Assembly: GCA_964580825.1 (NCBI GenBank)
Contig: CAZOLB010000001.1
Coordinates: 3,066-67,065, forward strand
Source of the DNA: an uncultured Gammaproteobacteria bacterium
GTDB taxonomy: Bacteria > Patescibacteriota > Patescibacteriia > UBA2591 > UBA6264
DNA: 64,000 nt
Direction: 5' to 3'
Below the pieces are notes generated by a model. It made no database searches, had not been told where the DNA came from, and saw nothing but the letters and a program-made list of their open reading frames with translations. The position numbers and the translations under genes were made by a program. Of the stretch, positions 18,603 to 64,000 are shown piece by piece (the stretch's first letter is position 1; every line of letters starts with the position of its first letter).

Positions 18603-20099
18603 TTACTCTTGCTTATCTTTAAATGACTTTAAGCATTGCCGACAATAAACGGGCCTGATTCCATCGGGAATAAAGGGAACATAAATTTCTAGGCCGCATT
18701 TATCGCACTTCGACTTATATTTATTTGTTTCAATTTCCCTAATCTCTCCTTGCTTTTTCCCCTCCTTCCTCTTCTCTTTGGAGATCCCGAGCCAACGGCC
18801 TATTTTCTGCTCAACCAACCCCTGCGGTTCTGTATAACGTTCTCGCGAAATTTTTATTATCTTATCTTTATTTTCTTCCGGCTTCAGAGAAGACTCCGAT
18901 ATTCTGGCAAAAATAGGGTCGGAAATAGCGCCATTAACCGCCATTTTAACAAACAATTCATATCTCTTTAAATTAGCCAATTTATTTTTATTGAAACGTC
19001 GGCGCGCAACTTCCTTAGACAAAGATAAAGCGTCTTCGGCGTTCACTTTATAAGCGAGAATCGTTCCAATGTTATTAAAAATTGCATCTTTAATTCTCAA
19101 ATTCCGCTTTGTTTCGCTCAATTGCCCAAGATACTGATGCGCCAGGATTAAATTTACATAATGTTTATTTTCTTGAGAAATCATCTCTTTAAAAGAATCG
19201 GTAATCAGATCGGAGAACTCATCAATATATAAATAAAAATCGCGACGTTGATTTTCGGAAACACTAAGCCGCTCTATGGCAATCATCTGAATTTTTGTCA
19301 CCAACATCGCCCCGAAAAATGCGGCTATTTCTTCCCCAACTATCGCTTTTGACAAATTTACTATTAAAATTTTCTCTTTATTGATAACTTCATCGATGTC
19401 AACTTTCGAGCTAACTTGTCCGGCAATATTTCTCACTAAAGGAATAGAGAAAAAAGCGCCAATTTTCTCTTGTATGGGGATTATAACTTCAGTTCGTAAA
19501 CGCTCATCATATCGCGGATATTCCTTCTCCCAAAACGCTTTTACTCCCTCGTCGCTTACTCTCTCTACCACCTTCCGCCTATATTCTTCGTCGAGCAACA
19601 TTCTTTTAACACCTAAAAGTGTTGGGGACTGATATTCCAATAAAGCTAAAATAATATTGCGCAACACATGGATCACACGAGGATTAGGCAATTCACTTTT
19701 AATTTTCTCCAAAGCCGCAACAAGATTCGAAACAACCAAAAAATGCTGATAATTTCCCCCGACTCCCTTTAAAATATTAAAAGAAAAAGGATTTTTTACG
19801 TCCGCAAGATTAAGATAAATCGTATCATTAACGCGAGAAGAAGGAATAAAATCCACTACCCTTTTAGCCAAACCGCCATAAAAATCAATTAAAGCGACGC
19901 CATGGCCGGATAAAATGTCCTGACAAATCATTTTTTCCATCGTCCTTGACTTGCCGCTTCCCGCTACACCAATCAAATACATATGCCGCCGGCGGTCTTC
20001 CCTTTTAAGGCCCAGTTCGCGCCGAGGACCGTCGCCCTCCGTTTTGGCAAAAAAAACTATATCTTTTACTTCTTCTCCCTCTTTTTCGACTTCTACCAT
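18603..20099 (-). CDS. FtsK/HerA-superfamily P-loop ATPase (type IV coupling-protein/DUF87-like) with C-terminal Cys4 zinc ribbon; paralog 1 of 3
   Basis: Walker A is present (HMYLIGVAGSGKSRTM), as is Walker B (FYLYIDEFSDLI) and a downstream AHQYLGQL motif. The C-terminus is CDKCGLEIYVPFIPDGIRPVYCRQC. It has no TM helix. It is clearly paralogous to the ORFs at 48562 and 50296. The start is moved to the ATG at 20099 to avoid overlap with the upstream gene. Confidence 0.7.
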   Translation of the reverse strand: MVEVEKEGEEVKDIVFFAKTEGDGPRRELGLKREDRRRHMYLIGVAGSGKSRTMEKMICQDILSGHGVALIDFYGGLAKRVVDFIPSSRVNDTIYLNLADVKNPFSFNILKGVGGNYQHFLVVSNLVAALEKIKSELPNPRVIHVLRNIILALLEYQSPTLLGVKRMLLDEEYRRKVVERVSDEGVKAFWEKEYPRYDERLRTEVIIPIQEKIGAFFSIPLVRNIAGQVSSKVDIDEVINKEKILIVNLSKAIVGEEIAAFFGAMLVTKIQMIAIERLSVSENQRRDFYLYIDEFSDLITDSFKEMISQENKHYVNLILAHQYLGQLSETKRNLRIKDAIFNNIGTILAYKVNAEDALSLSKEVARRRFNKNKLANLKRYELFVKMAVNGAISDPIFARISESSLKPEENKDKIIKISRERYTEPQGLVEQKIGRWLGISKEKRKEGKKQGEIREIETNKYKSKCDKCGLEIYVPFIPDGIRPVYCRQCLKSFKDKQE

Positions 20100-20121
20100 A
20101 GTGGTTATTATACCATTTTCT

Positions 20122-21243
20122 TTATTTTTTTTCAACCGTCTTTTTAAAACCAAACTGCCGAAAGGAAAAGAAAACAATTAAACAGCTAGCTAAGGCAATT
20201 AAAAAAAACAAAGCAATCACTTTGCCCGTAGTCCTGGCAAATAAGGAAATAAATCCAAAAAAAACCGCAACTAACCAATAAAAGATAGCTGTCCCGCGAT
20301 GTGAAAATCCAATGTTTAATAAGCGGAAATGGAGATGTTTCTGATCACCTGAAAACGGCGAACGATGTTCAATAAAAATTCTTTGAATAACCACGCTAAT
20401 AAGATCGATGATTGCCAAGCCGAGAATTAAAAAAGTGGTTGCCAATTTGCCGCCTGAAATTATTGCCAAAATTCCCAATATAAAACCGGCAAAAAGACTC
20501 CCTCCTTCGCCTAAAAAAATCTTTGCCGGATGGAAATTAAAAACCAAAAATCCTAAACCAGCGCCGGCTAAAATCAAGGCCATTATTCCAATGTCAGGCT
20601 GATAAAACCTGGTTAAAAAACAAAGTCCGGCAATAGTTAAAGATCCGATAACCGTCATTCCCGAGACCAAGCCATCCAGTCCGTCGAGCAATTTGGTGGC
20701 ATACATTAAAACCATTAACCAAATAAAAGTTATAATATCAGCAAGAGGCGTAAAATAATATGGAATTCCGTTTAGACGGATTATCTCAATTTTTACCTTG
20801 TCAAAATATAAATAACCTTCTCTTAAAGGATTATTAATAAACTCAATGCCGATGCCGCTGGCAATAACCGCCAAACAAGCCAAAATCGGCCAAATAATCT
20901 GTTTCTGCGGTTTTACATTGTATTTATCATCTAAAAACCCCCCGACCATTAAAAACAAGCCGGCAATAAATATGCCCGCTAAATGTTTAATTGGGATTTT
21001 CCTGATAAATCCGCCTAATTCCGGAATTAAATTCCAGGGGTTAAAATAAATAATAAACAAAACAATAAAGAAAACGATGAAAATAGCCGTCCCGCCTAAA
21101 AGAGGCGTCGCTTCACGATGAATTTTACGCTCTATCACTCCCGCATAATCAAGAATTCGCCATTTTATAGCCAAACGGCGAATCAAAAAAGTAAAAACAA
21201 CCGAAAGAATAAAACCAATTAAAAATAAAATTAAGAACAACAT
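20122..21243 (-). CDS. Polyprenyl-phosphate N-acetylhexosamine-1-phosphate transferase (MraY/WecA, glycosyltransferase family 4)
   Basis: 373 aa with about 10 TM helices and the cytoplasmic loop motif GGFLDDKYN. This is family-level similarity; MraY versus WecA/TagO is not resolved. Confidence 0.65.
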   Translation of the reverse strand: MLFLILFLIGFILSVVFTFLIRRLAIKWRILDYAGVIERKIHREATPLLGGTAIFIVFFIVLFIIYFNPWNLIPELGGFIRKIPIKHLAGIFIAGLFLMVGGFLDDKYNVKPQKQIIWPILACLAVIASGIGIEFINNPLREGYLYFDKVKIEIIRLNGIPYYFTPLADIITFIWLMVLMYATKLLDGLDGLVSGMTVIGSLTIAGLCFLTRFYQPDIGIMALILAGAGLGFLVFNFHPAKIFLGEGGSLFAGFILGILAIISGGKLATTFLILGLAIIDLISVVIQRIFIEHRSPFSGDQKHLHFRLLNIGFSHRGTAIFYWLVAVFFGFISLFARTTGKVIALFFLIALASCLIVFFSFRQFGFKKTVEKK

Positions 21244-48561: not shown

Positions 48562-50154
48562 CTAACGACGAGGGCGTGGAGGATTATCTTTTTTAAATTC
48601 TATACCTAATTCCGAGAGTTCAGCAACGCCGCTTGTATTTCTATAAGATGTTCTCATTTGGGGGTTTTTGATTATTGGTTTGACTTCGCCACTTTTTATT
48701 TTTTCCAAACAATCATGACAATAGACCGGTCGGCGTGAGTCTGGCTTAAAAGGCACTTTAGTTTCCTTTTTGCAAGCCGAACATTCGGCCAAATAAAGCC
48801 CTGAAGCCGTAGTGCTTATCCCACTACTCCACTCCCTAATTTCATCTTCAATCTCCTGTCGAGGCCGGGTATAAAGACGGCGAGACGTCTCAATCAACTT
48901 CTGAGGATCCACTACTCTATCTTCTTTTAATTCAAAAGGGGGCATAGTCTTAGCTGAAAAAGGACGGCTAGTAACGCTGTTAACCATTAATTTAATATAA
49001 ATGCGATAGTTGGGTAAATTAACGATATCTTGGGCGGTAAACTCCGGACTAAATTCTTTTTCTAAAAACTCGGCATCGGCTGCGCCAACCCGAAAAGAAA
49101 TCATCGTGCCAACGTTGCCAAAAACCGAATCGCGAACTGTCGAAGACGATTCCGTGCTTAACTGTCCGATATATTGATGAACAATAGTCAAGTTGAGATA
49201 ATATTTTCGCGCTTCAGAAAGAATGCCGGCAAACGACTCAGTCACAAAATTTTGAAATTCGTCAACATACAAATAAAAATCTTTGCGTTCTTTTTCGGGA
49301 ATACGCACTCGCTCCATGGCGGAAAGCTGAATTTTAGTAATCAACATCGCTCCCAACAAAGCCGAATTATCTTCACCGATTCTCCCCTTGGAAACGTTAA
49401 CTAAAAATATCTTTCCTTTATTCATAATGTCGAAAAGGTCGATAGTGCTTTCTTTTTGTCCGACCACATTACGCACTAGAGAGGTGGAAAGAAACTGTCC
49501 GACTTTATTTTGAATCGGCGCGATCGCTTCACTCCTAAAACTGTCTTTCCATTCTTCATATTCATTAATCCAAAACGCTTTAACTACAGGGTCTTTAAGA
49601 TTTTTAACAATCATTTGTCTATATTCTTTATCAACTAATAACCTCGGTATTCCCAAGAGGGTCGTATTCGGCGTATCCAAAAGGGCCAAAATGGCATTAT
49701 TAAGAATATATTCCATTCTCGCTGACCAAACATTAGCCCAAAGTTTAGTAAAAATCCCCATTAAGCCAGAGGCGACTAAATGTTTATATTTTGGGTCGGG
49801 TAGGGCTAAAATATTGAAGCCAGCATGATAATCTGTATCGGCGGGATTAAAATAAATAACGTCTTTTTCTCTTTTTGTGGGTATTTTTTTTAAAATCGAC
49901 TCGACTAATTCGCCATGAGGATCAATGACACAAACCCCCTCGCCATTCATAATATCCTGCAAAATCATATTATGGATAAAAACCGATTTACCAGTACCGG
50001 TTTTACCGACCACGTACATATGTTGGCGCCTATCTTTTCTTTTAATGCCAAAAATTCTTTCGGTGTTGCGAAAGTCCGTTTTGGCTAAATAAATAATATC
50101 TTTATTTTCCTCTCCGGCCCCGAGAGAATTGCTATTTTTATTTTCTTCTGCCAT
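48562..50154 (-). CDS. FtsK/HerA-superfamily P-loop ATPase (coupling-protein/DUF87-like) with C-terminal Cys4 zinc ribbon; paralog 2 of 3
   Basis: Walker A RQHMYVVGKTGTGKSV, then VIDPHGELV. Walker B is FYLYVDEFQNFV, followed by TIVHQYIGQLS. The C-terminus is CSACKKETKVPFKPDSRRPVYCHDCL. It has no TM helix. Confidence 0.7.
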   Translation of the reverse strand: MAEENKNSNSLGAGEENKDIIYLAKTDFRNTERIFGIKRKDRRQHMYVVGKTGTGKSVFIHNMILQDIMNGEGVCVIDPHGELVESILKKIPTKREKDVIYFNPADTDYHAGFNILALPDPKYKHLVASGLMGIFTKLWANVWSARMEYILNNAILALLDTPNTTLLGIPRLLVDKEYRQMIVKNLKDPVVKAFWINEYEEWKDSFRSEAIAPIQNKVGQFLSTSLVRNVVGQKESTIDLFDIMNKGKIFLVNVSKGRIGEDNSALLGAMLITKIQLSAMERVRIPEKERKDFYLYVDEFQNFVTESFAGILSEARKYYLNLTIVHQYIGQLSTESSSTVRDSVFGNVGTMISFRVGAADAEFLEKEFSPEFTAQDIVNLPNYRIYIKLMVNSVTSRPFSAKTMPPFELKEDRVVDPQKLIETSRRLYTRPRQEIEDEIREWSSGISTTASGLYLAECSACKKETKVPFKPDSRRPVYCHDCLEKIKSGEVKPIIKNPQMRTSYRNTSGVAELSELGIEFKKDNPPRPRR

Positions 50155-50295: not shown

Positions 50296-51759
50296 CTAAA
50301 TGAGAGGTCGGGGATTGTCAGTATCTTTCTTATCTTCTTTACCGCTTTCGCTTGAGCCTTCTTTTTTTTCTTTAATCGCCGCTTTTTCTTGAGCGCTTCG
50401 CAAAATTTGCGCTTCTTCTTCCTCAATTAATTTTTTTGCCGCATCGGCAGAAATACTATACTTGCGTCGAGAAGATTCGATAATTTCCTCTTTATACGAT
50501 GGGTGATTAGGGGACAAGACGCTTAAAGTTTGGGCGGAAAAGGGATCATAGGACTCGCCATTAATCATCAATTTAATATAAAATTCCCTTTTACCCAAAT
50601 TAATCATATCTTTGGCTTTAAAAATCGGGGCCATATCCGATTCCAGCGCTCCCGCATCGTCGCCGCCGACTCGAAAAATAATAATCGTAGCCACATTGCC
50701 CAAAACCGAAGCCTGTACTCGCGGCAAAAGTTGACTCAAATATTGGTGGGCGACTGTCAAACAAATGCCATACTTTCTTGACTCCGACAATAAATTCTCA
50801 AACGTCTCGGTTACCAAATTATGAAACTCATCAACATATAAATATAATGGCTTTCTCTCTTTTTCCGGAATATTCGCCCTTCCCATGCCGGCTTGTTTGA
50901 TTTTAGTGACAAATATCGAGCCAAAGAAACTGGAATTCTCCTCTCCCAACCTACCCTTGGAAAGATTAATAAAAATTATTTTTTCTTGATTCATTAATTT
51001 TTCTAAATCTACCTTATTCTCTTTTTGTCCAAAAATATTCCTCAACATCGGGTCGGCTAAAAATTGTCCGAGTTTATTGACTAAAGGAATAATAGCGTCG
51101 GTATCGAATTTTTCCGACCAATCGGCAAACTCAATCGCCCAAAAACGTTTAACCATATCGTCGGTTATATACTCGACCACTTTCTGGCGATAATTACGGT
51201 CAGTAAGCAGAGAAATCATCCCCCTCATCGTCGCATAAGGATAATCCAGAAGAGCCAAACAGGTAAAACGGAAAACGTGTTCCAGGCGCGGTGTCCAATT
51301 AGCGCCAAATTGTTTTTTTATCACTTCGATTAAACCTTGGGTTAATTGAAATTTGAAGCCTGGATCGACGTTAGATAAAGGATTAAAAGAAACGGGGTGC
51401 TCATTGTCGGAAGGGTCAATTAATACCACGTCGTCAATCCTTTCCTTGGGAATAAAGTCCAAAAGAAGCTCAATAACGTCACCGTGGGGGTCGATAAAAC
51501 AAACTCCCTTGCCATAAGCAATATCCTGACGAACAAGAAGTTCCAAAAGTTTTGATTTTCCCACACCGCTCTTGCCAATAATATAAATATGGCGATCTCG
51601 ATCTTCGCGTTTTATTCCAAAAACAAACAGTTTCTCTTCAAGGGCGGCCACATAATTTGTCCGCCCGATAAAAGAAACGTCTTTTGGATCAACGTTCCCC
51701 AATACCGGCAACTCCGGCGGCGGCGGAGCGTAACGAATAATCTGAATTTTTTCAGCCAT
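50296..51759 (-). CDS. FtsK/HerA-superfamily P-loop ATPase (coupling-protein/DUF87-like); paralog 3 of 3, without zinc ribbon
   Basis: Walker A RHIYIIGKSGVGKSKL, then FIDPHGDVI. Walker B is LYLYVDEFHNLV, followed by TVAHQYLSQL. The C-terminal tail is acidic and K-rich instead of Cys4. It is collinear with paralogs 1 and 2 over about 400 aa. Confidence 0.7.
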   Translation of the reverse strand: MAEKIQIIRYAPPPPELPVLGNVDPKDVSFIGRTNYVAALEEKLFVFGIKREDRDRHIYIIGKSGVGKSKLLELLVRQDIAYGKGVCFIDPHGDVIELLLDFIPKERIDDVVLIDPSDNEHPVSFNPLSNVDPGFKFQLTQGLIEVIKKQFGANWTPRLEHVFRFTCLALLDYPYATMRGMISLLTDRNYRQKVVEYITDDMVKRFWAIEFADWSEKFDTDAIIPLVNKLGQFLADPMLRNIFGQKENKVDLEKLMNQEKIIFINLSKGRLGEENSSFFGSIFVTKIKQAGMGRANIPEKERKPLYLYVDEFHNLVTETFENLLSESRKYGICLTVAHQYLSQLLPRVQASVLGNVATIIIFRVGGDDAGALESDMAPIFKAKDMINLGKREFYIKLMINGESYDPFSAQTLSVLSPNHPSYKEEIIESSRRKYSISADAAKKLIEEEEAQILRSAQEKAAIKEKKEGSSESGKEDKKDTDNPRPLI

Positions 51760-55905: not shown

Positions 55906-56400
55906 ATGAAATTAGCCATTTTCTCTGATTCCCACGACAATATTCCCAACCTGAAAAAAGCTTTAATTTACTGCCAAAATGAGAACATCGGCGTTATTCT
56001 TCATTGCGGAGACCTTTGCAAAATAGAATCTCTGATTGAATCTTGGCCTAAGAGCTCGGGAATTAAAATGCATTTGGCAGTCGGCAACGCCGATATTCTG
56101 AAAAAATCCGATTATGAATCTTTTTTTCCGTTAAAAATCCATGGTCCGGTCGGAGAATTTACTTTTGAAAACAAAAAAATCGCCTTTACTCATTTTCCAG
56201 ACAAGGCGAAAGAACTCGCTAAACAGCAAAAACACGATTATATTTTCTACGGACACACCCATAAACCCTGGGAAGAAACAGTTGAAAAAACAAAATTGGT
56301 TAATCCCGGAGAGATTGGCGGAATGCCCTATCAGTCAACGTTCGCCGTTCTGGATCTTGAAAAAAATAAATTATCGCTTAAAATATTAGGAGAAATATAA
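55906..56400 (+). CDS. Metallophosphoesterase, YfcE/MJ0936-family
   Basis: DSHDN motif (IFSDSHDNIP), with GD (HCGDL), GNAD and GHTH motifs, arranged as in calcineurin-like phosphoesterases. Confidence 0.75.
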   Translation: MKLAIFSDSHDNIPNLKKALIYCQNENIGVILHCGDLCKIESLIESWPKSSGIKMHLAVGNADILKKSDYESFFPLKIHGPVGEFTFENKKIAFTHFPDKAKELAKQQKHDYIFYGHTHKPWEETVEKTKLVNPGEIGGMPYQSTFAVLDLEKNKLSLKILGEI

Positions 56401-56641: not shown

Positions 56642-57319
56642 ATGTACAAAATTCTTTATGCTTTAATCTACTGGGTCTTCCGACCGCAAACGGCAATGAG
56701 CAAGATCGAAGGGTTGGAAAATTTGCCGAAGAAAGAAGGTTTTATTCTGGCAGCCAATCATCAAAATTCTCATGACCCCTTAATTATGATTGTGGCTTTG
56801 AAAAAATTCTTTTTTAGTTATGTCTGGGCAAAAAAGAAAAAAATGTATTTTATCGGCTCGCTTGATTTAAAAAGACAATGGCTTAGATACAGTTTTATAT
56901 CTTTAATCTTCGGTCTTTTTGAGGAAAGGGTTGGATACTTAACGGCTGATAAAAAGGGTTTAAAAAAAGCGCTCGCCAAGCTTCAAAAAGAAAACATCGT
57001 GGTAATTTTTCCCGAAGGCAGACGAAATATCACTTCAATCTTGAAGCCGGGCAAAAAAGGAGCAGCGGTTTTAGCCCTTCTGTCCGGGAAAAAAATTATT
57101 CCCGTCGGCTGTTTCGGCCCCGCTATCTTCTGGCTCGGACAAATTACCGGATTTTTCAAAAAAAAATGGATAAAATTCGGCAAACCTTTCTGTTTCCCAA
57201 AAGCCGACCAAAAAAAAATCGACCAAGAACCGGAAATTTTAAAACAGGCAACCGCTGAAGTTATGGGAAAAATCTCTCTTGTCTGCGGTAAAAGTCGATA
57301 TGAATCCACAAATCTCTAG
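56642..57319 (+). CDS. plsC: 1-acyl-sn-glycerol-3-phosphate acyltransferase
   Basis: HX4D motif (NHQNSHD) and FPEGRR motif. There is an N-terminal hydrophobic anchor. Confidence 0.8.
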   Translation: MYKILYALIYWVFRPQTAMSKIEGLENLPKKEGFILAANHQNSHDPLIMIVALKKFFFSYVWAKKKKMYFIGSLDLKRQWLRYSFISLIFGLFEERVGYLTADKKGLKKALAKLQKENIVVIFPEGRRNITSILKPGKKGAAVLALLSGKKIIPVGCFGPAIFWLGQITGFFKKKWIKFGKPFCFPKADQKKIDQEPEILKQATAEVMGKISLVCGKSRYESTNL

Positions 57320-57517: not shown

Positions 57518-58483
57518 ATGATTAAAAAGGGTGTTATAAATTCGGAATTGATTGTCGCCGGCGACGGAAGCGTATATCATCTCAATTTGAAAAAAAGCGA
57601 TAATCTGCCAAAAGACATTTTTTTAGTCGGCGACCCGCAAAGAGCTTACCAATTAGCCGGATATTTTGATAATAAAAAAATTATTTTTGAAAGAAAAAAT
57701 CGGGAATTTGTCACTTTAGTCGGTTTTTATAAAAAAATTCCGATAACAGTTATCGGCACTGGTATCGGGCCGGGCAACGCGGAAATCGTCGGAACTGAAT
57801 TGCACATTTTAAATGAATACGACCATAAAAGAAAAATTTGGGAAAAAAACTTTTCTCCCTTAAATATTATCCGTCTGGGTACGGCCGGATCGGCGCAAAA
57901 AAATATCGCCGTCGGCAGTCTGGCCATCTCCCAATACGCCATTGGTTTGGACAATATCGGCATTTTTTATCCTCATACTTCAACGGATCCGATTATTAAA
58001 GCCGTACAAAAAAAACTTAACCGCACTAAAATAGCAAAAGTCCATCCATACGTGACGGCCGGTTCGCCTGAAATAATCAAAGCCCTAATTCAAAGCTGTC
58101 AAAATATCGGATTAAAACAAAACAAAAAACGGGGTTTTTATTGCGGTCTGACTTGTTCAGCGCCGGGATTCTACGGACCGCAAGGCAGAAAAATCGGCCG
58201 AATCGGCAAAATTCTGATCCCTGATCTGCAAAAAATTTTAGAAACTCTTAATGTCAATAATTTAAAAGTAATCAATAACGAGATGGAAACGAGCGCCATT
58301 TTTAGAATCTTGGGAGAAATCCTTAATTATAAAACCGGTTCGATTTGCGCCGTTATCGCCAATCGAAATAAAAAAGAAGTCGTTTCGCCTCAAGAATACG
58401 AAAAAGCCGTCAATCGCTGTCTTAAAGTTGGTTTAGAGGCGATGAAAATATTAAACTCCGCCGCAAAAACTTTAATGAAATAA
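57518..58483 (+). CDS. Nucleoside phosphorylase, PNP/UDP family 1 (uridine/purine nucleoside phosphorylase-like)
   Basis: 321 aa. The glycine-rich phosphate-binding region is TVIGTGIGPGNAEI. The NEMETSAIF motif is characteristic of PNP_UDP_1 enzymes. Substrate specificity cannot be assigned from sequence. Confidence 0.65.
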   Translation: MIKKGVINSELIVAGDGSVYHLNLKKSDNLPKDIFLVGDPQRAYQLAGYFDNKKIIFERKNREFVTLVGFYKKIPITVIGTGIGPGNAEIVGTELHILNEYDHKRKIWEKNFSPLNIIRLGTAGSAQKNIAVGSLAISQYAIGLDNIGIFYPHTSTDPIIKAVQKKLNRTKIAKVHPYVTAGSPEIIKALIQSCQNIGLKQNKKRGFYCGLTCSAPGFYGPQGRKIGRIGKILIPDLQKILETLNVNNLKVINNEMETSAIFRILGEILNYKTGSICAVIANRNKKEVVSPQEYEKAVNRCLKVGLEAMKILNSAAKTLMK

Positions 58484-58563: not shown

Positions 58564-59676
58564 TTACTCGACTATTATTCCGCCGCCTAAAACCTCTTCG
58601 CCAGCGTAAAAAACCGCTGATTGGCCGGGGGTAACGGCGCGCTGGGCTCTTTTAAATTCCGCCTTTAATTCTTTGGCGGACAAAATCCGTTCAGAAAATT
58701 TTACCAAAACGCCCGGATGTTGATATCTTATTTTAACCGTTATTTTTCCGTCTTTTTTTATTTTTTCTCTATTAAGCCAATTTATATCTTTAATTGAAAA
58801 ATATTTTTTGTATAAGTCTTTTTCCCGTCCCACAATTAACGCATTGTTTTTTTTATCTATCTTAATTACATAAAAGGGCCTGTTTAAACCGCTTAACAAG
58901 CCTTTTCTCTGGCCGACAGTATAAAAAGGCAAACCCCGATGTTCGCCTAAAATACAACTCTGTAAATCCTTAATTGGCCCGTTCTTAATGCCGCAAAAAT
59001 CGCACAGCCGTGAATCTTTGACAGCGGATTTTTTAAAGAATTTTCTAAGAAAATTTCGATAGTCGTTGTCGGGAATAAAACAAATTTCCCGCGATTCTTT
59101 TTGCCCCTTGATTGCCAAATTATTTTTCGCGGCAATCCTTTTAACTTCATTCTTAGTCAAGTCGCCCAAAGGAAAAATGATTCTTTTTAACTGATTTTGT
59201 TTTAAGCGATACAAAAAATACGACTGATCCCGAGTTTCATCTTTAGCTTTTTTTAAAACAAATTTTGAAAATTGAGAATTAGGAATTGAAAATTCACGCG
59301 TTACACGCGCGTAGTGTCCGGTTGCCAGATAATCAGCGCCTAATTTTCTCGCCCGTTTTAATAATAAACCGAATTTTATTTTTTCATTACACCAAACGCA
59401 GGGATTGGGAGTTTTTCCATTCAGATATTCGCGGCAAAACGGCTGAATAATTCTCTTTTTAAACTCATTTTTTAAATTAACCGTATAATGAGGGATTCTC
59501 AATCTTCTACAAATAATTTTTGCGTCTCTAACCGCTTGTCTTTCAAAGTCGCCCAATAACATTGTCAGGCCAAAAACTTGATATTTTTTCAATAATAAAA
59601 AGGCGGCGACCGACGAGTCGACACCGCCCGACATCGCCACGGCCACAATACTGCTTTCCTTATTCTTTCTGGCCAT
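58564..59676 (-). CDS. mnmA: tRNA-specific 2-thiouridylase
   Basis: PP-loop (VAVAMSGGVDSSVAAFLL) and catalytic cysteines (…PNPCVWCN…, …EICFIP…), with full-length MnmA similarity. Confidence 0.9.
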   Translation of the reverse strand: MARKNKESSIVAVAMSGGVDSSVAAFLLLKKYQVFGLTMLLGDFERQAVRDAKIICRRLRIPHYTVNLKNEFKKRIIQPFCREYLNGKTPNPCVWCNEKIKFGLLLKRARKLGADYLATGHYARVTREFSIPNSQFSKFVLKKAKDETRDQSYFLYRLKQNQLKRIIFPLGDLTKNEVKRIAAKNNLAIKGQKESREICFIPDNDYRNFLRKFFKKSAVKDSRLCDFCGIKNGPIKDLQSCILGEHRGLPFYTVGQRKGLLSGLNRPFYVIKIDKKNNALIVGREKDLYKKYFSIKDINWLNREKIKKDGKITVKIRYQHPGVLVKFSERILSAKELKAEFKRAQRAVTPGQSAVFYAGEEVLGGGIIVE

Positions 59677-60073
59677 TTTTCTTTTGATAATCCTCTATCG
59701 CCGCTTTAAGTGCTTGCTCGGCCAAAACCGTGCAATGATATTTATGAGTGGGCATCTCTCCCAGAACCTCTTTAATCTTCTTATTCGATATTACCAACGC
59801 CTCGGTAATAGTTTTTCCTTTAACCAATTCGGTTAAAACCGAAGTCGAAGCAATTGCGGCAGCGCAACCGTAAGTTAAAAACTTGGCGTCAGTTATTTTA
59901 CCGTCCTTCACTTTAATATAAAAATCCATAATATCTCCGCATGTCGGATTGCCGACATGGCCGACGGCGTCAGCGTCGTCAATTTTGCCCACGTTCCGCG
60001 GATGGAGAAAATGATCCATTATTTGGCTATTTTCATCAAAACAACCCATATATTTATAAATTCTAAAATCCAA
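59660..60073 (-). CDS. iscU: Fe-S cluster assembly scaffold, IscU/SufU/NifU-N-like
   Basis: Three conserved Cys (NPTCGD, …TYGCAAAIAS…, …HCTVLA…). It lies immediately downstream of the cysteine desulfurase gene. Confidence 0.8.
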   Translation of the reverse strand: MDFRIYKYMGCFDENSQIMDHFLHPRNVGKIDDADAVGHVGNPTCGDIMDFYIKVKDGKITDAKFLTYGCAAAIASTSVLTELVKGKTITEALVISNKKIKEVLGEMPTHKYHCTVLAEQALKAAIEDYQKKNGQKE

Positions 60074-60132
60074 ATTCCAAATCCTAAAAAATTTGAAATT
60101 ATTTATAACCTTTTAACGTTTATTTTAAATTT

Positions 60133-61329
60133 TTAATTTTTTATTTTCAAAGGGGAAATATTTCTTAATCTTTCAACCACAAAAATTAATTTTTGAACCG
60201 TATAATCCAAATCTCTTTTTTGAGTCCAACGGCCAAGCGTAAAACGCAAAGAAGAATGAGCCAACTCGGGTCCCAGTCCTATGGCCATTAAAACGTGGGA
60301 CGGCTCCAAGGTGGCTGAAGAACAAGCCGATCCAGTAGAACAAGCGATACCAAAACGATCCAGGTCAATCAACATCGATTCCCCTTCGATGCCCTTGATA
60401 CTCACATTGACATTATTGGCCAACCTTGTTTTCGGCTGGCCGTTTAAACGGCTTTCTTTAACGCTTTTTAAAATTTTTTCAATTAAATAATCTCTTAATC
60501 CGCTCAGCCGTTTTATTTCTTTATCCATTTCTTTGTCCGCCAGTTCTACCGCCTTGGCAAATCCGACAATACCGGGAATATTTTCTGTGGAAGCGCGACG
60601 GCCTCGTTCATGCTCTCCACCATGGACCAAAGATTCGATTTTAATTCCTTTTTTTAGAAAAAGTAAGCCGACTCCTTTAGGCCCATAAAGCTTGTGCGCC
60701 GAAGCTGAAAGCATGTCAACAGACAAATCATTAACGTCAATCGGTATATGTCCAAAAGTCTGAACCGCATCGGTATGAAAATAAATAGGAAAATTGATTC
60801 CTTCTTTTTTCCTTCTTTCTCTTTCTCTCCGGACAATTTCACCGATTTCTTTAATTGGCTGAATAGTCCCTATTTCATTATTGGCGTGCATGACGGAAAT
60901 CAAAACCGTTTCATTTTTTATTTCTTTTTCCAATCTCGACAAATCAATCAACCCATGTTCATCAACCGGCGAATAAAAAATTTCCGCGCCTTGTTTTTCT
61001 AAAAATTTGCAGGTCTCCAAAACGGCATGATGTTCTATTCTTGAAACGATAAAATGCGAACGAGAAATTTTTAAAGAATAAAAAAGCCCTTTTAAAACTA
61101 AATTATCCGATTCGGTGCCACCGGAAGTAAAAATAATTTCCTCCGGTTCGGCTTTAATAAAACTAGCGATTTCTTCTCTTGCTTTATTCATCGCCTTTCT
61201 GGCCATTTGGCCAACCTCGTGTAAACTTGAAGCATTACCGTAAATTTTTAAAAAATATGGCTTCATCGCCTTGAGCACCCGCGGATCAGTTGGCGTCGTC
61301 GCCGCGTAGTCAAGATATATTCTTCTCAT
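60133..61329 (-). CDS. iscS: Cysteine desulfurase (class V aminotransferase, NifS/IscS type)
   Basis: PLP-lysine (SASAHKLYGPKG) and active-site Cys loop (GSACSS), with full-length similarity. Confidence 0.9.
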   Translation of the reverse strand: MRRIYLDYAATTPTDPRVLKAMKPYFLKIYGNASSLHEVGQMARKAMNKAREEIASFIKAEPEEIIFTSGGTESDNLVLKGLFYSLKISRSHFIVSRIEHHAVLETCKFLEKQGAEIFYSPVDEHGLIDLSRLEKEIKNETVLISVMHANNEIGTIQPIKEIGEIVRRERERRKKEGINFPIYFHTDAVQTFGHIPIDVNDLSVDMLSASAHKLYGPKGVGLLFLKKGIKIESLVHGGEHERGRRASTENIPGIVGFAKAVELADKEMDKEIKRLSGLRDYLIEKILKSVKESRLNGQPKTRLANNVNVSIKGIEGESMLIDLDRFGIACSTGSACSSATLEPSHVLMAIGLGPELAHSSLRFTLGRWTQKRDLDYTVQKLIFVVERLRNISPLKIKN

Positions 61330-61466
61330 AATTCTAGTATAATATTATTATCCGAACGCTACAAATAATAATATAAATCCATATCATTATTATATTATTA
61401 CATCAATCATTATATTATAAACTTACAAATCCTGTCAATCTCCGTTTAAAAATCCCTTTTTAAAAG

Positions 61467-61495
61467 TTTGGGAACTTAGTTCCCAAACTTTCTTA
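61467..61495 (-). terminator. Rho-independent terminator after the EndoQ-like gene
   Basis: AAAGTTTGGGAAC-TTA-GTTCCCAAACTTT gives a 13-bp perfect stem. It is followed on the minus strand by UUUUAAAAAG. Confidence 0.5.
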
Positions 61496-61501
61496 TTGGA
61501 A

Positions 61502-62791
61502 TTAAAACAAACTTTTCTGATTGCGCGGCGTCTTCTTTTTTCTGACTATTTCTCTTTTTATCTCAGGCTTTCCAAAAATGCCGATTTCCCCATAAACGCC
61601 GTCATATCCCGGTTTAATAAACAATTCTTCTCGCCTAACCCGATCTATCCCTTGTATAATTCTCTCGTCAATCCCCTTGGATTTCATTTCCGCCAAAGGA
61701 CAATCTATTAGGATAAAAAGTTCATTACCCAAAATTTTAACCATCTTAAAATAAGCATCCATCACCGTCCGCGATTCGCGCGTTTTAATCTCAAAAGACT
61801 GAGCGATAATTTTATCCAATTCAATTAATCTTTTGTATCTCGGTTTATTCTTGGGCGTATATCCCAACTCACGATCGGCCAACTCCTCCACCCGATAACT
61901 AACCCCTGCCGTCAAAGGTTTTTTACATTTTGGACAAATACCTTTATATTTAACCGTCTGTTTTGGCTCTAAAGAAACGCCGCAATCCCGATGGCCGTCA
62001 AAATGATACCGCCCTTCTTCGGGAAAAAATTCAATAGTGTATAAAAATTTGTTAATATCCTTTTGTTTTAAAATCCTAATCAACTCGTCATAAGAAAAAT
62101 CCGCTTCTTTAATTTCAAAAACATTCGCTTCCCGGCCGATATTCTTCAATGAATGGGAATCGGAATTAGAAACCAAAATATATGGATCAAGAGCCGAAAC
62201 CCGCCAATTCATCGGCGGATCGGAACTAATGCCGGTTTCCAAAGCGAAAATATACGGCGCCATATCTTCAAAACACTCTTTAATGCTATTGAAGCCGGAT
62301 TTTGAACCAAATAAAGAAAACCAAGGAGTCCAAATATGCGCCGGAATAATCTCTATTTTTTCATCAACGCTTTTTACCAATTCCAGAAAATTTCTATCAG
62401 ATAATCCCAAAATTGGCCGGCCATCCGATTTTAAATTAAAACCCCTATCTTGCAGGGTTTTATTTAATTTCTTGACCGCTTCAATAGAGGGCGCTAAAAC
62501 AATTTCATGAACTCTCCTGGTTTTTTCATTCTTTCGATAAATAAACGACAGTTCGGTGGTAAAAATAAAATAAACGCTTTTGACGCTGTTTTTAAGCCGA
62601 TAAAAGCCATTGCCGACCGCGGTCAATTGTTCTTCACACTCCTTAATCCAAGTCGGATGAGTAAAATCGGCTGTAGTCAACAAATTAACTCCCTTAATCT
62701 CGCCCCATTTTTCAAGATTAGGCAAAGTTAATTGAGGGGAACAAGCCCGAGAAAAACGAGAATGATTATGAATATCGGCTATAACGCGCAT
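61502..62791 (-). CDS. PHP-domain nuclease of the Endonuclease Q (EndoQ, TIGR00375-like) family with C-terminal zinc finger
   Basis: The N-terminus RVIADIHNHSRFSRACSP matches the EndoQ PHP metal-binding start (DLHIHSRYSRA). Further His/Asp ligands are spread along the protein. The zinc finger is CPKCKKPL. Confidence 0.65.
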   Translation of the reverse strand: MRVIADIHNHSRFSRACSPQLTLPNLEKWGEIKGVNLLTTADFTHPTWIKECEEQLTAVGNGFYRLKNSVKSVYFIFTTELSFIYRKNEKTRRVHEIVLAPSIEAVKKLNKTLQDRGFNLKSDGRPILGLSDRNFLELVKSVDEKIEIIPAHIWTPWFSLFGSKSGFNSIKECFEDMAPYIFALETGISSDPPMNWRVSALDPYILVSNSDSHSLKNIGREANVFEIKEADFSYDELIRILKQKDINKFLYTIEFFPEEGRYHFDGHRDCGVSLEPKQTVKYKGICPKCKKPLTAGVSYRVEELADRELGYTPKNKPRYKRLIELDKIIAQSFEIKTRESRTVMDAYFKMVKILGNELFILIDCPLAEMKSKGIDERIIQGIDRVRREELFIKPGYDGVYGEIGIFGKPEIKREIVRKKKTPRNQKSLF

Positions 62792-62931
62792 AGCGACAAT
62801 TTTAGTTAAAAAAACAAAATAAGTCCAGAGACAAATAAATCAAAAATAAAAATAGGCCTATTATTTTTCTCTTGTTTTCCGTTTTAAATGGACTGTTTTT
62901 AAAATTCGTATTCGACCTATTCCAGTGCAAA

Positions 62932-63044
62932 ATTCTCGGCATCGACCTACTCTCGCCCTTACAGACTACCATCGGCCCTAGAGAGCTTAACTTCTGTGTT
63001 CGAGATGGGAACAGGTGTAACCTCTCTGGTAAAGACACCGAGAA
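62932..63044 (-). rRNA. rrf: 5S ribosomal RNA
   Basis: The minus strand matches the 5S consensus (…ACCUGUUCCCAUCUCGAACACAGAAGUUAAGCUCUCUAGGGCCGAUGGUAGUCUGUAAGGGCGAGAGUAGGUCGAUGCCGAGAA). Helix I is formed by 5' UUCUCGGUGUC and 3' GAUGCCGAGAA. Confidence 0.85.
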
Positions 63045-63299
63045 TATTGCACTTAAATCGGCGATAAGACGAATAAAAAACAGAAATAAAATTCGAAAAT
63101 CAAAATATTATATGCCTATTTTTACTAATCCTAATTTTCAATCCTTCTCATTTCAATATAATCCGCTTAGGGACTAAAACCCTAAATTGCGGCATTGTGA
63201 GTTAAATGGTGAATTAGAAATTTGACCTATTAGGACTTCTCGGCTAAATTTGTTGCCAAACTTACACCTAAAGCCTATATACCCGGTAATCTTCCGGGG

Positions 63300-64000
<701 letters not shown>

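What the first reader, a model, noticed from the sequence alone, without database searches (positions are those of the whole stretch)
61502..62791. Endonuclease Q-type PHP nuclease encoded directly downstream of 5S rRNA
The N-terminus (RVIADIHNHSRFSRACSP) closely matches the metal-binding start of archaeal EndoQ, which cleaves DNA 5' of deaminated or abasic bases. A C-terminal CPKC zinc finger is also present. EndoQ homologs are uncommon in bacteria. Here it is co-directional with the rRNA operon and may be co-transcribed or share its terminator (hairpin at 61467-61495).
Basis: partly seen in the sequence, partly recalled or inferred. Interest (0 to 1): 0.5.

Follow-up and report, generated by a model that had tools for sequence, protein, structure and literature searches.

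The report
EndoQ-type DNA repair nuclease gene
This gene encodes an ordinary bacterial member of the endonuclease Q family, which nicks DNA next to deaminated or missing bases; its only mildly unusual feature is that related ultra-small bacteria keep it just after the 23S-5S ribosomal RNA genes.

Summary
The ORF at 61502-62791 (minus strand, 429 aa) is real and belongs to the endonuclease Q (EndoQ) family. It aligns end to end with Pyrococcus furiosus EndoQ (E=5e-51). A confident AlphaFold model superposes on the crystal structures 5ZB8/7K30 at TM 0.82-0.89 across all three domains. Ordinary PHP esterases match only the catalytic barrel (TM about 0.3). Every catalytic residue tested by mutation in PfuEndoQ is conserved, as is the lesion pocket apart from two conservative changes.

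The zinc site is His-Cys3 rather than Cys4, and this holds across the bacterial clade. The protein ends in QKSLF after a disordered linker. This looks like a beta-clamp-binding motif, the bacterial counterpart of the archaeal PCNA-binding box, and it was already noted in the literature.

The family is not rare here. It is widespread in Patescibacteria and other candidate phyla, and NCBI already names homologues "endonuclease Q family protein".

The gene lies 142 nt downstream of 5S rRNA. That position is kept in all 7 closer relatives examined and in 8 of 80 distant ones, while downstream neighbours change. Co-transcription with rRNA remains untested. Relatives have terminators after 5S, and the window has a degenerate one plus a weak promoter-like site. 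Low interest: a new member of a known kind.

The parts
61502..62791 (-). endoQ-family gene, 429 aa, including the TAA stop at 61502-61504
   Evidence: ORF list. phmmer against PDB: PfuEndoQ E=5e-51, query 3-405 vs chain 3-382. TIGR00375 E=2e-49. AF2 model pLDDT 92.4. Foldseek TM 0.82-0.89 to 5ZB8/7K30.
62024..62791 (-). PHP catalytic domain, about residues 1-256. Metal ligands are H8, H10, E80, H95, H152 and D211, plus the essential R125 and H213. Lesion pocket residues are T155, E185, T186, G187, I188 and N209, plus W157.
   Evidence: Mapped column by column onto PfuEndoQ H8, H10, E76, H84, H139, D193, R114, H195, T142, E167-L170, N191 and W144. Residue roles come from PMC5961232.
61820..62023 (-). 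Zn-binding domain, about residues 257-324, with the His-Cys3 site H267, C270, C286, C289
   Evidence: Aligned to PfuEndoQ C249, C252, C268 and C271. His occupies the first position in 116 of 119 close homologues and in 67 of 72 species-level relatives from several phyla; 3 keep Cys and 2 have His at both of the first two positions.
61562..61819 (-). C-terminal helical domain, about residues 325-410
   Evidence: The sequence alignment to PfuEndoQ runs to residue 405. The model shows helices 325-386 and a beta hairpin 391-404 at high pLDDT. This region is covered by the Foldseek alignment.
61505..61561 (-). Low-confidence Lys-rich tail (residues 411-429) ending in Q425-K-S-L-F429 (nt 61505-61519), a putative beta-sliding-clamp-binding motif
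   Evidence: pLDDT is below 50 for residues 413-421. Qxx[LMIF][FLIM] occurs in the last 10 residues of 108 of 119 homologues and at the exact C-terminus in 97. Aminicenantes and Omnitrophota members carry the canonical QLSLF. DPANN archaeal members instead carry PIP-like QKSLDEFF and QRGLGEYL. The motif was noted earlier for bacterial homologues in PMC4858679.
61462..61492 (-). 14-bp hairpin followed by UUUU, a probable intrinsic terminator of the endoQ transcript
   Evidence: Fold -25.4 kcal/mol, z=-5.6. It begins 10 nt after the stop codon. The simple terminator scan missed it because the T-run is short.
62799..62827 (-). Weak promoter-like site TGGACT-17-TAAAAT. The -10 box ends 7 nt before the ATG, and no Shine-Dalgarno is visible, so a leaderless mRNA is possible.
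   Evidence: Pattern scan, 9 of 12 matches. Sequence read directly. L081 has a TAAAAT in a similar position; the other relatives are not consistent. This is pattern-level evidence only.
62841..62862 (-). AATAGGCCTATT palindrome plus a T-rich run, apparently the degenerate remnant of the terminator that follows 5S in relatives
   Evidence: It aligns with the strong hairpins of L081 and L085. The folds of L081, L085 and L092 have z = -4.9, -7.1 and -3.8, whereas the window's spacer has z = +0.5 to +1.0.
62934..63042 (-). 5S rRNA gene, 142 nt upstream of endoQ
   Evidence: Rfam RF00001, 88.8 bits.
63209..64000 (-). 3' part of the 23S rRNA gene, cut off by the window end
   Evidence: Rfam RF02541, 425 bits.

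Best explanation
The gene encodes a stand-alone, bacterial-type endonuclease Q.

Inferred mechanism, by homology with P. furiosus EndoQ: the enzyme scans duplex DNA and bends it. It rotates a deaminated base (uracil, hypoxanthine or xanthine) or an abasic sugar into a small rigid pocket beside the PHP-domain metal centre. It then hydrolyses the phosphodiester bond immediately 5' of the lesion. [quoted passage not shown]

The flexible Lys-rich tail ending in QKSLF most likely tethers the enzyme to the beta sliding clamp, as the archaeal PIP box tethers EndoQ to PCNA.

The nick is then probably processed by strand displacement or helicase unwinding. This is suggested by the many relatives in which EndoQ is fused to a UvrD-type helicase.

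For expression, the most likely arrangement is a short monocistronic unit. It would have its own weak, possibly leaderless promoter just downstream of the 23S-5S genes and would end at the hairpin at 61462-61492. Some read-through from the rRNA genes is possible, because the post-5S terminator is degenerate in this genome.

What is shown: homology, conserved residues, fold, motif conservation and synteny. What is inferred: the enzymatic activity, clamp binding, the downstream pathway and the transcript structure.
For: - Full-length sequence match to PfuEndoQ, with no other significant PDB family. TIGR00375 is the only NCBIfam hit.
- All six metal ligands, plus R125 and H213, are identical and invariant in 119 homologues. 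Of the lesion-pocket positions, T155, E185 and G187 are identical; Pfu L168 is T186 here and L170 is I188. The W144 equivalent (W157) is also identical. Their roles are established by mutagenesis in PMC5961232.
- The AF2 model has pLDDT 92.4 and pTM 0.90. Foldseek gives TM 0.82-0.89 and rmsd 2.6-3.3 A to 5ZB8/7K30 over 407-412 columns. The next hits are PHP esterases at TM about 0.3.
- C-terminal motif: Q at position -4 in 98 of 98 sequences, L at -1 in 97 of 98, and F/L/I at the last residue. The motif follows the host's clamp type: QLSLF or QKSLF in bacteria, Qxx[L]xx[FY][FL] in DPANN archaea of the same clade. The tail is low-confidence in the model.
- EndoQ-UvrD fusions occur among representatives 44-51% identical to the query.
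- The gene's GC content equals that of its neighbours.
- The 3' hairpin has z=-5.6.
- A consensus promoter for the next operon follows it.
Against: - The TIGR00375 score (168.9 bits) is below the curated equivalog cut-off (326.6). By that criterion this clade is a divergent subfamily, not an equivalog.
- Two PfuEndoQ DNA-backbone contacts whose mutation lowers activity, R201 and K276, are N217 and T294 here.
- The first Zn ligand is His rather than Cys.
- No member of this Patescibacteria clade has been assayed. I found no paper in the held library that mentions EndoQ together with Patescibacteria or CPR.
- Clamp binding rests on a 5-residue motif whose second position is Lys rather than the consensus Leu.
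- The promoter call is only 9 of 12 matches in AT-rich DNA, and it is not consistently placed in relatives.
Confidence: 0.85

Rival explanations
1. The gene is functionally tied to the rRNA genes. It would be expressed mainly as the 3' extension of the 23S-5S primary transcript and released by rRNA processing. Its conserved position after 5S would then be selected for, either for constitutive high expression or for protection of the heavily transcribed, deamination-prone rDNA.
For: - 23S-5S lies directly upstream on the same strand in all 7 closer relatives looked up. The gaps are 88-718 nt, or one or two co-directional genes.
- The same arrangement occurs in 8 of 80 species-level relatives at 46-53% identity, at 0.1-3.4 kb. 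No rRNA hit was found downstream or on the other strand.
- Downstream neighbours differ (nifS-nifU-mnmA, the rplS side, or EPSP synthase), so the rRNA link outlasts other synteny.
- The window has no stable structure between 5S and the ATG.
- Rough expectation by chance, assuming a ~1 Mb genome with one 23S-5S unit: 4 kb / 1 Mb x 0.5 = 0.002 per independent genome (inference).
Against: - L081, L085 and L092 have strong terminator-like hairpins with U tails right after 5S.
- Protein genes are inserted between 5S and endoQ in many relatives.
- 72 of the 80 distant loci show no rRNA nearby.
- The relatives are not independent, so retained ancestral gene order in streamlined genomes would produce the same pattern.
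- Nearly all genes in the window share this strand anyway.
Confidence: 0.12
2. It is a generic PHP phosphoesterase or an RNase AM-like 5'-3' exoribonuclease that matures rRNA ends. This would fit its position after the rRNA genes.
For: It has a PHP fold. RNase AM PHP domains appear as distant structural hits (7ug9 at E=7e-4, 9etk). The gene is adjacent to 23S-5S.
Against: - Those hits cover only the barrel, at TMq about 0.3 and 12-13% identity, whereas PfuEndoQ scores TM 0.82-0.89 and 32% identity over three domains.
- The EndoQ-specific Zn-binding and helical DNA-binding domains are present, and the lesion pocket is conserved apart from two conservative changes.
- PfuEndoQ lacks the third-metal ligands of the PHP esterase BadPE (S14 and R114 in their place; PMC5961232), and S14 and R125 occupy the same positions here.
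- The sliding-clamp motif and the helicase fusions point to DNA as the substrate.
Confidence: 0.02
3. It is an anti-phage or anti-mobile-element nuclease that targets uracil-containing or otherwise modified foreign DNA, rather than a housekeeping repair enzyme.
For: EndoQ cuts dU-containing DNA, as established for the family (PMC4357722, PMC5961232). Nothing in the window tests this idea.
Against: - No PADLOC defence model matches.
- The neighbours are housekeeping genes: rRNA, Fe-S cluster assembly and tRNA thiolation.
- The gene is single-copy and its position is conserved across relatives, with the same composition as the host genome.
- No defence-island context is present.
Confidence: 0.01

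Closest known systems
Pyrococcus furiosus / Thermococcus kodakarensis endonuclease Q (archaeal 'family 1'; PDB 5ZB8, 7K30-7K33)
   Same: - The three-domain architecture is the same: PHP barrel, Zn-binding domain, C-terminal helical domain.
- About 32% identity over about 410 columns, TM 0.82-0.89.
- The metal ligands H8, H10, E, H, H, D are identical, as are the essential Arg and His, the G169 equivalent and the W144 equivalent.
- Both have a flexible C-terminal tail carrying a sliding-clamp peptide.
   Different: - The first Zn ligand is His (H267) instead of Cys249.
- Pocket L168 is T186 and L170 is I188.
- The DNA-contact residues R201 and K276 are N217 and T294.
- There is an 11-residue insertion between the E76 and H84 equivalents, and other small insertions (429 aa vs about 424 aa).
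- The tail ends in the 5-residue bacterial-type QKSLF rather than the 8-residue PIP box QRTLLQYI.
- The host is presumably a mesophilic bacterium rather than a hyperthermophilic archaeon.
Bacterial EndoQ of Bacillus pumilus / B. subtilis (bacterial families 2 and 3 of Shiraishi et al. 2017, as summarised in PMC5961232)
   Same: It is a bacterial homologue. The Bacillus enzymes have reported EndoQ-like activity. Beta-clamp-type motifs at the C-terminus of bacterial homologues were noted in PMC4858679.
   Different: I could not obtain the Bacillus sequences or the 2017 paper. The assignment of this protein to family 2 or 3, and its identity to BpuEndoQ, are therefore untested. The window protein belongs to a very large, uncharacterised clade covering Patescibacteria and other candidate phyla.
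EndoQ-UvrD helicase fusion proteins (about 1000-1200 aa) found among metagenomic relatives
   Same: The N-terminal ~420 residues are 44-51% identical to the window protein over its full length.
   Different: The window protein is stand-alone (429 aa) and ends with the clamp motif, where the fusions continue into a UvrD/REP helicase. None of the larger window ORFs scanned against Pfam is a UvrD-type helicase; not every ORF was scanned.
Generic PHP-family phosphoesterases (BAD_1165, TM0559, RNase AM/YciV, the Pol III alpha PHP domain)
   Same: They share the PHP barrel and the two-metal core ligands.
   Different: They lack the Zn-binding and helical DNA-binding domains and the lesion pocket. 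Structural overlap is limited to the barrel: TMq about 0.3, 12-15% identity.

Membership tests
Endonuclease Q (EndoQ) family | Full-length sequence homology to characterised EndoQ, not only to the PHP domain | tested here: met
   phmmer gives E=5e-51 with query 3-405 aligned to PfuEndoQ 3-382. No other PDB family scores below E=0.9.
Endonuclease Q (EndoQ) family | PHP two-metal centre: His8, His10, Glu76, His84, His139, Asp193 (Pfu numbering) | tested here: met
   The query has H8, H10, E80, H95, H152 and D211. E, H, H and D are invariant in all 119 homologues; H8 and H10 are present in 118 of 119 (the other is a gap).
Endonuclease Q (EndoQ) family | Arg114 and His195, essential in PfuEndoQ, with Ser14 replacing the third-metal Asp of other PHP esterases | tested here: met
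   The query has R125, H213 and S14. Their roles are described in PMC5961232.
Endonuclease Q (EndoQ) family | Lesion-base pocket (H139, T142, E167, L168, G169, L170, N191, D193) and the W144 loop | tested here: met
   The query has H152, T155, E185, T186, G187, I188, N209, D211 and W157. The two differences are L168 to T (a main-chain contact in Pfu) and L170 to I.
Endonuclease Q (EndoQ) family | C4 zinc-binding domain (Cys249, Cys252, Cys268, Cys271) | tested here: inconclusive
   The query has H267, C270, C286 and C289. Three of the four Cys are kept and the first is His, which is also a zinc ligand. This holds across the bacterial clade. The domain superposes in the model. Metal occupancy cannot be tested here.
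Endonuclease Q (EndoQ) family | Three-domain fold: PHP, Zn-binding and C-terminal helical domains | tested here: met
   The AF2 model has pLDDT 92.4. Foldseek gives TMq 0.82 and TMt 0.88 to 5zb8_A over 407 columns, and 0.80/0.87 to the DNA complex 7k30_A.
Endonuclease Q (EndoQ) family | C-terminal sliding-clamp-interacting peptide on a disordered tail | tested here: met
   The protein ends in QKSLF after a low-pLDDT linker. The motif is conserved in 108 of 119 homologues and switches to a PIP-like form in archaeal clade members. This is sequence-level evidence only; binding was not tested.
Endonuclease Q (EndoQ) family | Cleavage of the phosphodiester bond 5' of dU, dI, dX or AP sites | not testable with these tools
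   This needs a biochemical assay.
NCBIfam TIGR00375 (hypothetical equivalog) | Score at or above the curated cut-off of 326.6 bits | tested here: not met
   The score is 168.9 bits at E=2.2e-49, covering model positions 2-374 of 374. The protein is homologous over the full length but falls outside the equivalog threshold, so it is a divergent subfamily.
Pfam PF27218 (MJ0043_C) | Match to the family model | not tested
   The hit is precomputed on nearly all close homologues, including the 100%-identical P0001. The model is absent from the local Pfam copy, which returned only a sub-threshold PHP_C hit.

The most novel reading that the evidence does not exclude
The conserved placement of endoQ immediately 3' of the 23S-5S genes in a broad set of Patescibacteria may be functional. 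The nuclease mRNA would be made by read-through of the rRNA transcript and released by rRNA processing, possibly as a leaderless message. This would couple the level of a deaminated-base repair enzyme to rRNA transcription in organisms with very few regulators.
Probability: 0.1. Interest if true: 0.5.

Novelty: new member of a known kind. Interest (0 to 1): 0.2.

Why it matters
For genome annotation the result is routine. The gene can be labelled an EndoQ-family lesion-specific endonuclease, and NCBI already names homologues this way.

Three points give it modest value.
- EndoQ, usually described as archaeal with only a few bacterial homologues, is in fact a very large family in Patescibacteria and other uncultivated phyla. 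It often occurs fused to a UvrD helicase. This suggests an EndoQ-initiated excision pathway is a mainstream way of handling uracil and hypoxanthine in these reduced genomes.
- The clamp-binding tail changes form with the host's clamp (beta-clamp motif versus PIP box) within a single clade. This is a neat natural experiment supporting clamp tethering.
- The retained position behind 23S-5S is a testable hint about how tiny genomes express housekeeping repair genes.

None of these would surprise a DNA-repair specialist.

Tried and rejected
- The local Pfam scan gave only a sub-threshold PHP_C hit. The relevant model, PF27218, is newer than the local copy.
- The PADLOC scan found no defence-system match, so I dropped the defence reading.
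- I tried to read Shi et al. 2021 (PNAS, the 7K30 paper) and Shiraishi et al. 2017 (Bacillus pumilus EndoQ). Neither is held. As a result, lesion contacts from the DNA complex and the family 2/3 definitions could not be checked first-hand.
- A literature search for EndoQ together with Patescibacteria or CPR listed no paper holding both.
- Multi-locus Rfam searches failed twice. I replaced them with blastn and nhmmer using the window's own 23S and 5S, plus single-locus Rfam confirmation for L081, L088 and L094.
- The simple terminator scan found nothing relevant between 5S and the gene or after the gene. Folding showed that the 3' hairpin is real but has a short U run.
- I looked for a consistently placed -10 box or leaderless start across relatives. 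It is suggestive in the window and L081 and inconsistent in L085, L088 and L064, so I left it as a weak inference.
- P0001 (479 aa, 100% identical) looked like an N-terminal extension. It is a gene-calling artefact: a 1-nt deletion fuses a spurious ORF lying over 5S.
- Cluster look-ups gave no organism names.
- Composition shows no sign of recent horizontal transfer.
Full report
**Observation**

The six-frame ORF list shows one long ORF at 61502..62791 on the minus strand: 429 aa, ATG start, TAA stop.

Rfam places a complete 5S rRNA at 62934..63042 (-) and the 3' part of 23S at 63209..64000 (-). The gene therefore starts 142 nt downstream of 5S on the same strand.

The hairpin after the stop codon is real. 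It has a 14-bp stem at 61462-61492, an energy of -25.4 kcal/mol, z = -5.6, and none of 200 shuffles fold as well. It is followed by UUUU.

**What the protein is**

- Sequence against solved structures: the only significant matches are the P. furiosus EndoQ entries 5ZB8 and 7K30-7K33. The E-value is 5e-51, with query residues 3-405 aligned to chain residues 3-382. The next hit has E=0.95.
- NCBIfam returns only TIGR00375, at E=2e-49 and covering model positions 2-374 of 374. The score of 168.9 bits is below the curated equivalog cut-off of 326.6.
- The local Pfam copy gives only a sub-threshold PHP_C hit. Close homologues, however, carry the precomputed PF27218 (MJ0043_C) hit.
- An AlphaFold2 model built on a 90-sequence alignment is confident: mean pLDDT 92.4, pTM 0.90.
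- Foldseek against the PDB puts PfuEndoQ first, at TMq 0.82-0.83 and TMt 0.88-0.89, rmsd 2.6-2.8 A, 407-412 columns and 32% identity. The DNA complex 7K30 scores 0.80/0.87.
- Generic PHP esterases (TM0559, BAD_1165, RNase AM, the Pol III PHP domain) follow at TMq about 0.3, covering only the barrel.

**Active site and domains**

I took residue roles from the PfuEndoQ structure paper PMC5961232 and mapped them through a 121-sequence alignment.

- Metal ligands H8, H10, E76, H84, H139 and D193 correspond to H8, H10, E80, H95, H152 and D211.
- The essential R114 and H195 correspond to R125 and H213.
- S14 is kept.
- The lesion pocket T142, E167, L168, G169, L170, N191 corresponds to T155, E185, T186, G187, I188, N209.
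- W144 corresponds to W157.

Almost all of these are invariant across 119 homologues.

The Zn-binding domain aligns, but its first ligand is His. The query has H267, C270, C286 and C289, against Pfu C249, C252, C268 and C271. His is found at this position in 116 of 119 close homologues. It is also found in 67 of 72 species-level relatives drawn from Patescibacteria, Aminicenantes, Omnitrophota, WOR-3, Nitrospirota and others; 3 of the 72 keep Cys and 2 have His at both of the first two positions. The His-Cys3 site is therefore the norm for this bacterial clade, not a peculiarity of this gene.

Two Pfu DNA-backbone contacts, R201 and K276, are not conserved; they are N217 and T294 here.

**C-terminal tail**

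After the last structured strand, the model loses confidence (pLDDT below 50 for residues 413-421). The protein ends in ...KKKTPRNQKSLF.

Among the 119 best homologues, 108 have Qxx[LMIF][FLIM] within the last ten residues, and 97 have it exactly at the C-terminus. Q is invariant at position -4, L is nearly invariant at -1, and the last residue is F, L or I.

In Aminicenantes and Omnitrophota members the motif is the textbook beta-clamp pentapeptide QLSLF. In the DPANN archaeal members of the same clade the tail is PIP-box-like instead: QKSLDEFF and QRGLGEYL. This switch with the host's clamp type supports a clamp-tethering role.

The idea is not new. Shiraishi et al. showed that the archaeal C-terminal PIP box binds PCNA (KD 55 nM) and that PCNA stimulates cleavage. 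They also remarked that bacterial homologues carry beta-clamp consensus sequences at the C-terminus (PMC4858679).

**How common the family is**

- The word-indexed search hit its 8000-candidate ceiling, and all 8000 were significant. Many named hits are [quoted passage not shown].
They span Patescibacteria and several other candidate phyla, plus DPANN archaea.
- The exhaustive scan of 50%-identity representatives found 3161 at E<=1e-3 and 926 at E<=1e-30.
- Many of those representatives are 1000-1200 aa proteins in which the EndoQ module is fused to a UvrD/REP helicase. One contains an intein.

The statement "uncommon in bacteria" reflects the literature on cultivated organisms (PMC5961232). 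It does not hold for this lineage. I found no held paper that discusses EndoQ together with Patescibacteria.

**Genomic context and expression**

The window looks like a typical Patescibacteria chromosome segment. Scanned genes include recA, ftsK, alaS, comEC, nrdD, metG, T4SS coupling-protein homologues and dnaJ. Almost every gene is on the minus strand, so being co-directional with the rRNA carries little information.

Downstream of the endoQ terminator hairpin lies a perfect TTGACA-18-TATAAT promoter at 61438..61409. It is followed by nifS/iscS-like, nifU-like and mnmA genes.

Between 5S and the endoQ ATG there is no stable structure (z = +0.5 to +1.0). The region holds only an AATAGGCCTATT palindrome with a T-rich tail. 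This aligns with strong terminator-like hairpins in relatives L081, L085 and L092, which fold at z = -4.9, -7.1 and -3.8.

A weak promoter-like site, TGGACT-17-TAAAAT, ends 7 nt before the ATG, and no Shine-Dalgarno sequence is visible. This is compatible with a leaderless mRNA, but it is only pattern-level evidence and is not consistently placed in relatives.

My best reading is an independent short transcription unit with some possible read-through from the rRNA genes. Only RNA data can settle this.

**Synteny**

I looked up seven closer relatives, 66-79% identical, on long contigs. All have 23S-5S directly upstream on the same strand.

| Locus | What lies between 5S and endoQ |
|---|---|
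| L081 | 118 nt |
| L085 | 188 nt |
| L088 | 195 nt |
| L092 | 88 nt |
| L091 | 718 nt |
| L094 | IMPDH gene |
| L093 | LytR_C gene plus IMPDH gene |

These come, and Rfam confirms L081, L088 and L094.

Their downstream neighbours fall into three different arrangements: nifS-nifU(-mnmA); a convergent rplS cluster; and EPSP synthase.

Among 80 species-level loci at 46-64% identity, eight have 23S-5S 0.1-3.4 kb upstream on the same strand. None has rRNA downstream or on the opposite strand. The intervening genes vary and are mostly co-directional.

For a ~1 Mb genome with one such rRNA unit, the chance expectation is roughly 0.002 per independent genome (my estimate). However, the genomes are related, so retained ancestral order explains much of the pattern. 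I rate a genuine functional coupling at about 10%.

**Rivals**

- An RNase AM-like rRNA-maturation role is tempting given the location. The EndoQ-specific domains, the lesion pocket, the clamp motif and the helicase fusions all argue against it.
- A defence role has no support: no PADLOC hit and a housekeeping context.
- Composition gives no sign of recent transfer.

**Verdict**

The gene is an ordinary, apparently intact, bacterial-type EndoQ family member. It is divergent from the archaeal equivalog model and has a His-Cys3 zinc site and a beta-clamp-type tail, both typical of its clade. Novelty: a new member of a known kind. Interest is low (0.2). The only mildly unexplained feature is its conserved position behind the 23S-5S genes.

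Noticed in passing
window 63736-64000 (-); L095 1412-2068: The last ~265 nt of the window, on the 23S strand, do not match the 23S of relatives. In the near-identical contig L095, a LAGLIDADG_2 homing-endonuclease ORF (218 aa) ends at the position equivalent to window ~63875. The 23S rRNA gene therefore appears to carry an intron with a homing endonuclease, as reported for CPR bacteria. The window holds only the intron's 3' end.
   Followed up: partly
window 62792-63042 (-); P0001 / L095 3001-4440: The public 479-aa protein that is 100% identical to this ORF is a gene-calling artefact. A 1-nt deletion in the T-run at about 62819 in contig L095 fuses a spurious ORF lying over the 5S rRNA to the true start.
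   Followed up: yes
window 61409-61438 (-): A perfect sigma-70 consensus promoter (TTGACA-18-TATAAT, 12/12) sits right after the endoQ terminator hairpin and about 80 nt upstream of the nifS-nifU-mnmA genes at 58564-61329. In relatives L081 and L085 the endoQ-nifS spacer is only 40-60 nt and has no hairpin.
   Followed up: partly
P0124, P0129, P0133, P0161 and others: A large share of the 44-51% identical representatives are 1000-1200 aa fusions of an N-terminal EndoQ module to a UvrD/REP helicase. P0127 carries an intein with a LAGLIDADG domain inside EndoQ. The fusions suggest that helicase unwinding follows the EndoQ nick, and they explain older 'DNA helicase UvrD' labels on stand-alone homologues such as P0067.
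   Followed up: partly
L021, L052 (DPANN archaeal MAGs) vs bacterial loci: Within the same EndoQ clade, archaeal members end in PIP-box-like peptides (QKSLDEFF, QRGLGEYL). Bacterial members end in the beta-clamp pentapeptide (QLSLF or QKSLF). The clamp-binding tail therefore appears to have been swapped to suit the host domain.
   Followed up: partly
L081 1-1640; L088 1-1503: In relatives, the 23S gene is preceded by a tRNA and a protein-coding gene rather than by 16S. The 23S-5S unit therefore seems to be unlinked from 16S in this lineage. This could not be checked in the window, which ends inside 23S.
   Followed up: no
window 1-64000: There is an extreme strand bias. Of 62 ORFs of at least 120 aa, only three credible genes (55906-56400, 56642-57319, 57518-58483) are on the plus strand, and GC skew is negative across the scanned 58-64 kb stretch.
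   Followed up: no
window 48562-50154, 50296-51759 and 18603-20177 (-): Two adjacent TrwB/VirD4-like type IV coupling-protein homologues are present, one with a C-terminal treble-clef zinc finger (zf_Tbcl_2). A third protein, of 524 aa, carries the same zinc finger.
   Followed up: no
window 63304-63391 (-): A stretch of about 88 nt near the 3' end of 23S is AT-rich and self-complementary. It has no blastn counterpart in relatives; L081 has about 50 nt at that position. It looks like a lineage-specific expansion hairpin.
   Followed up: no
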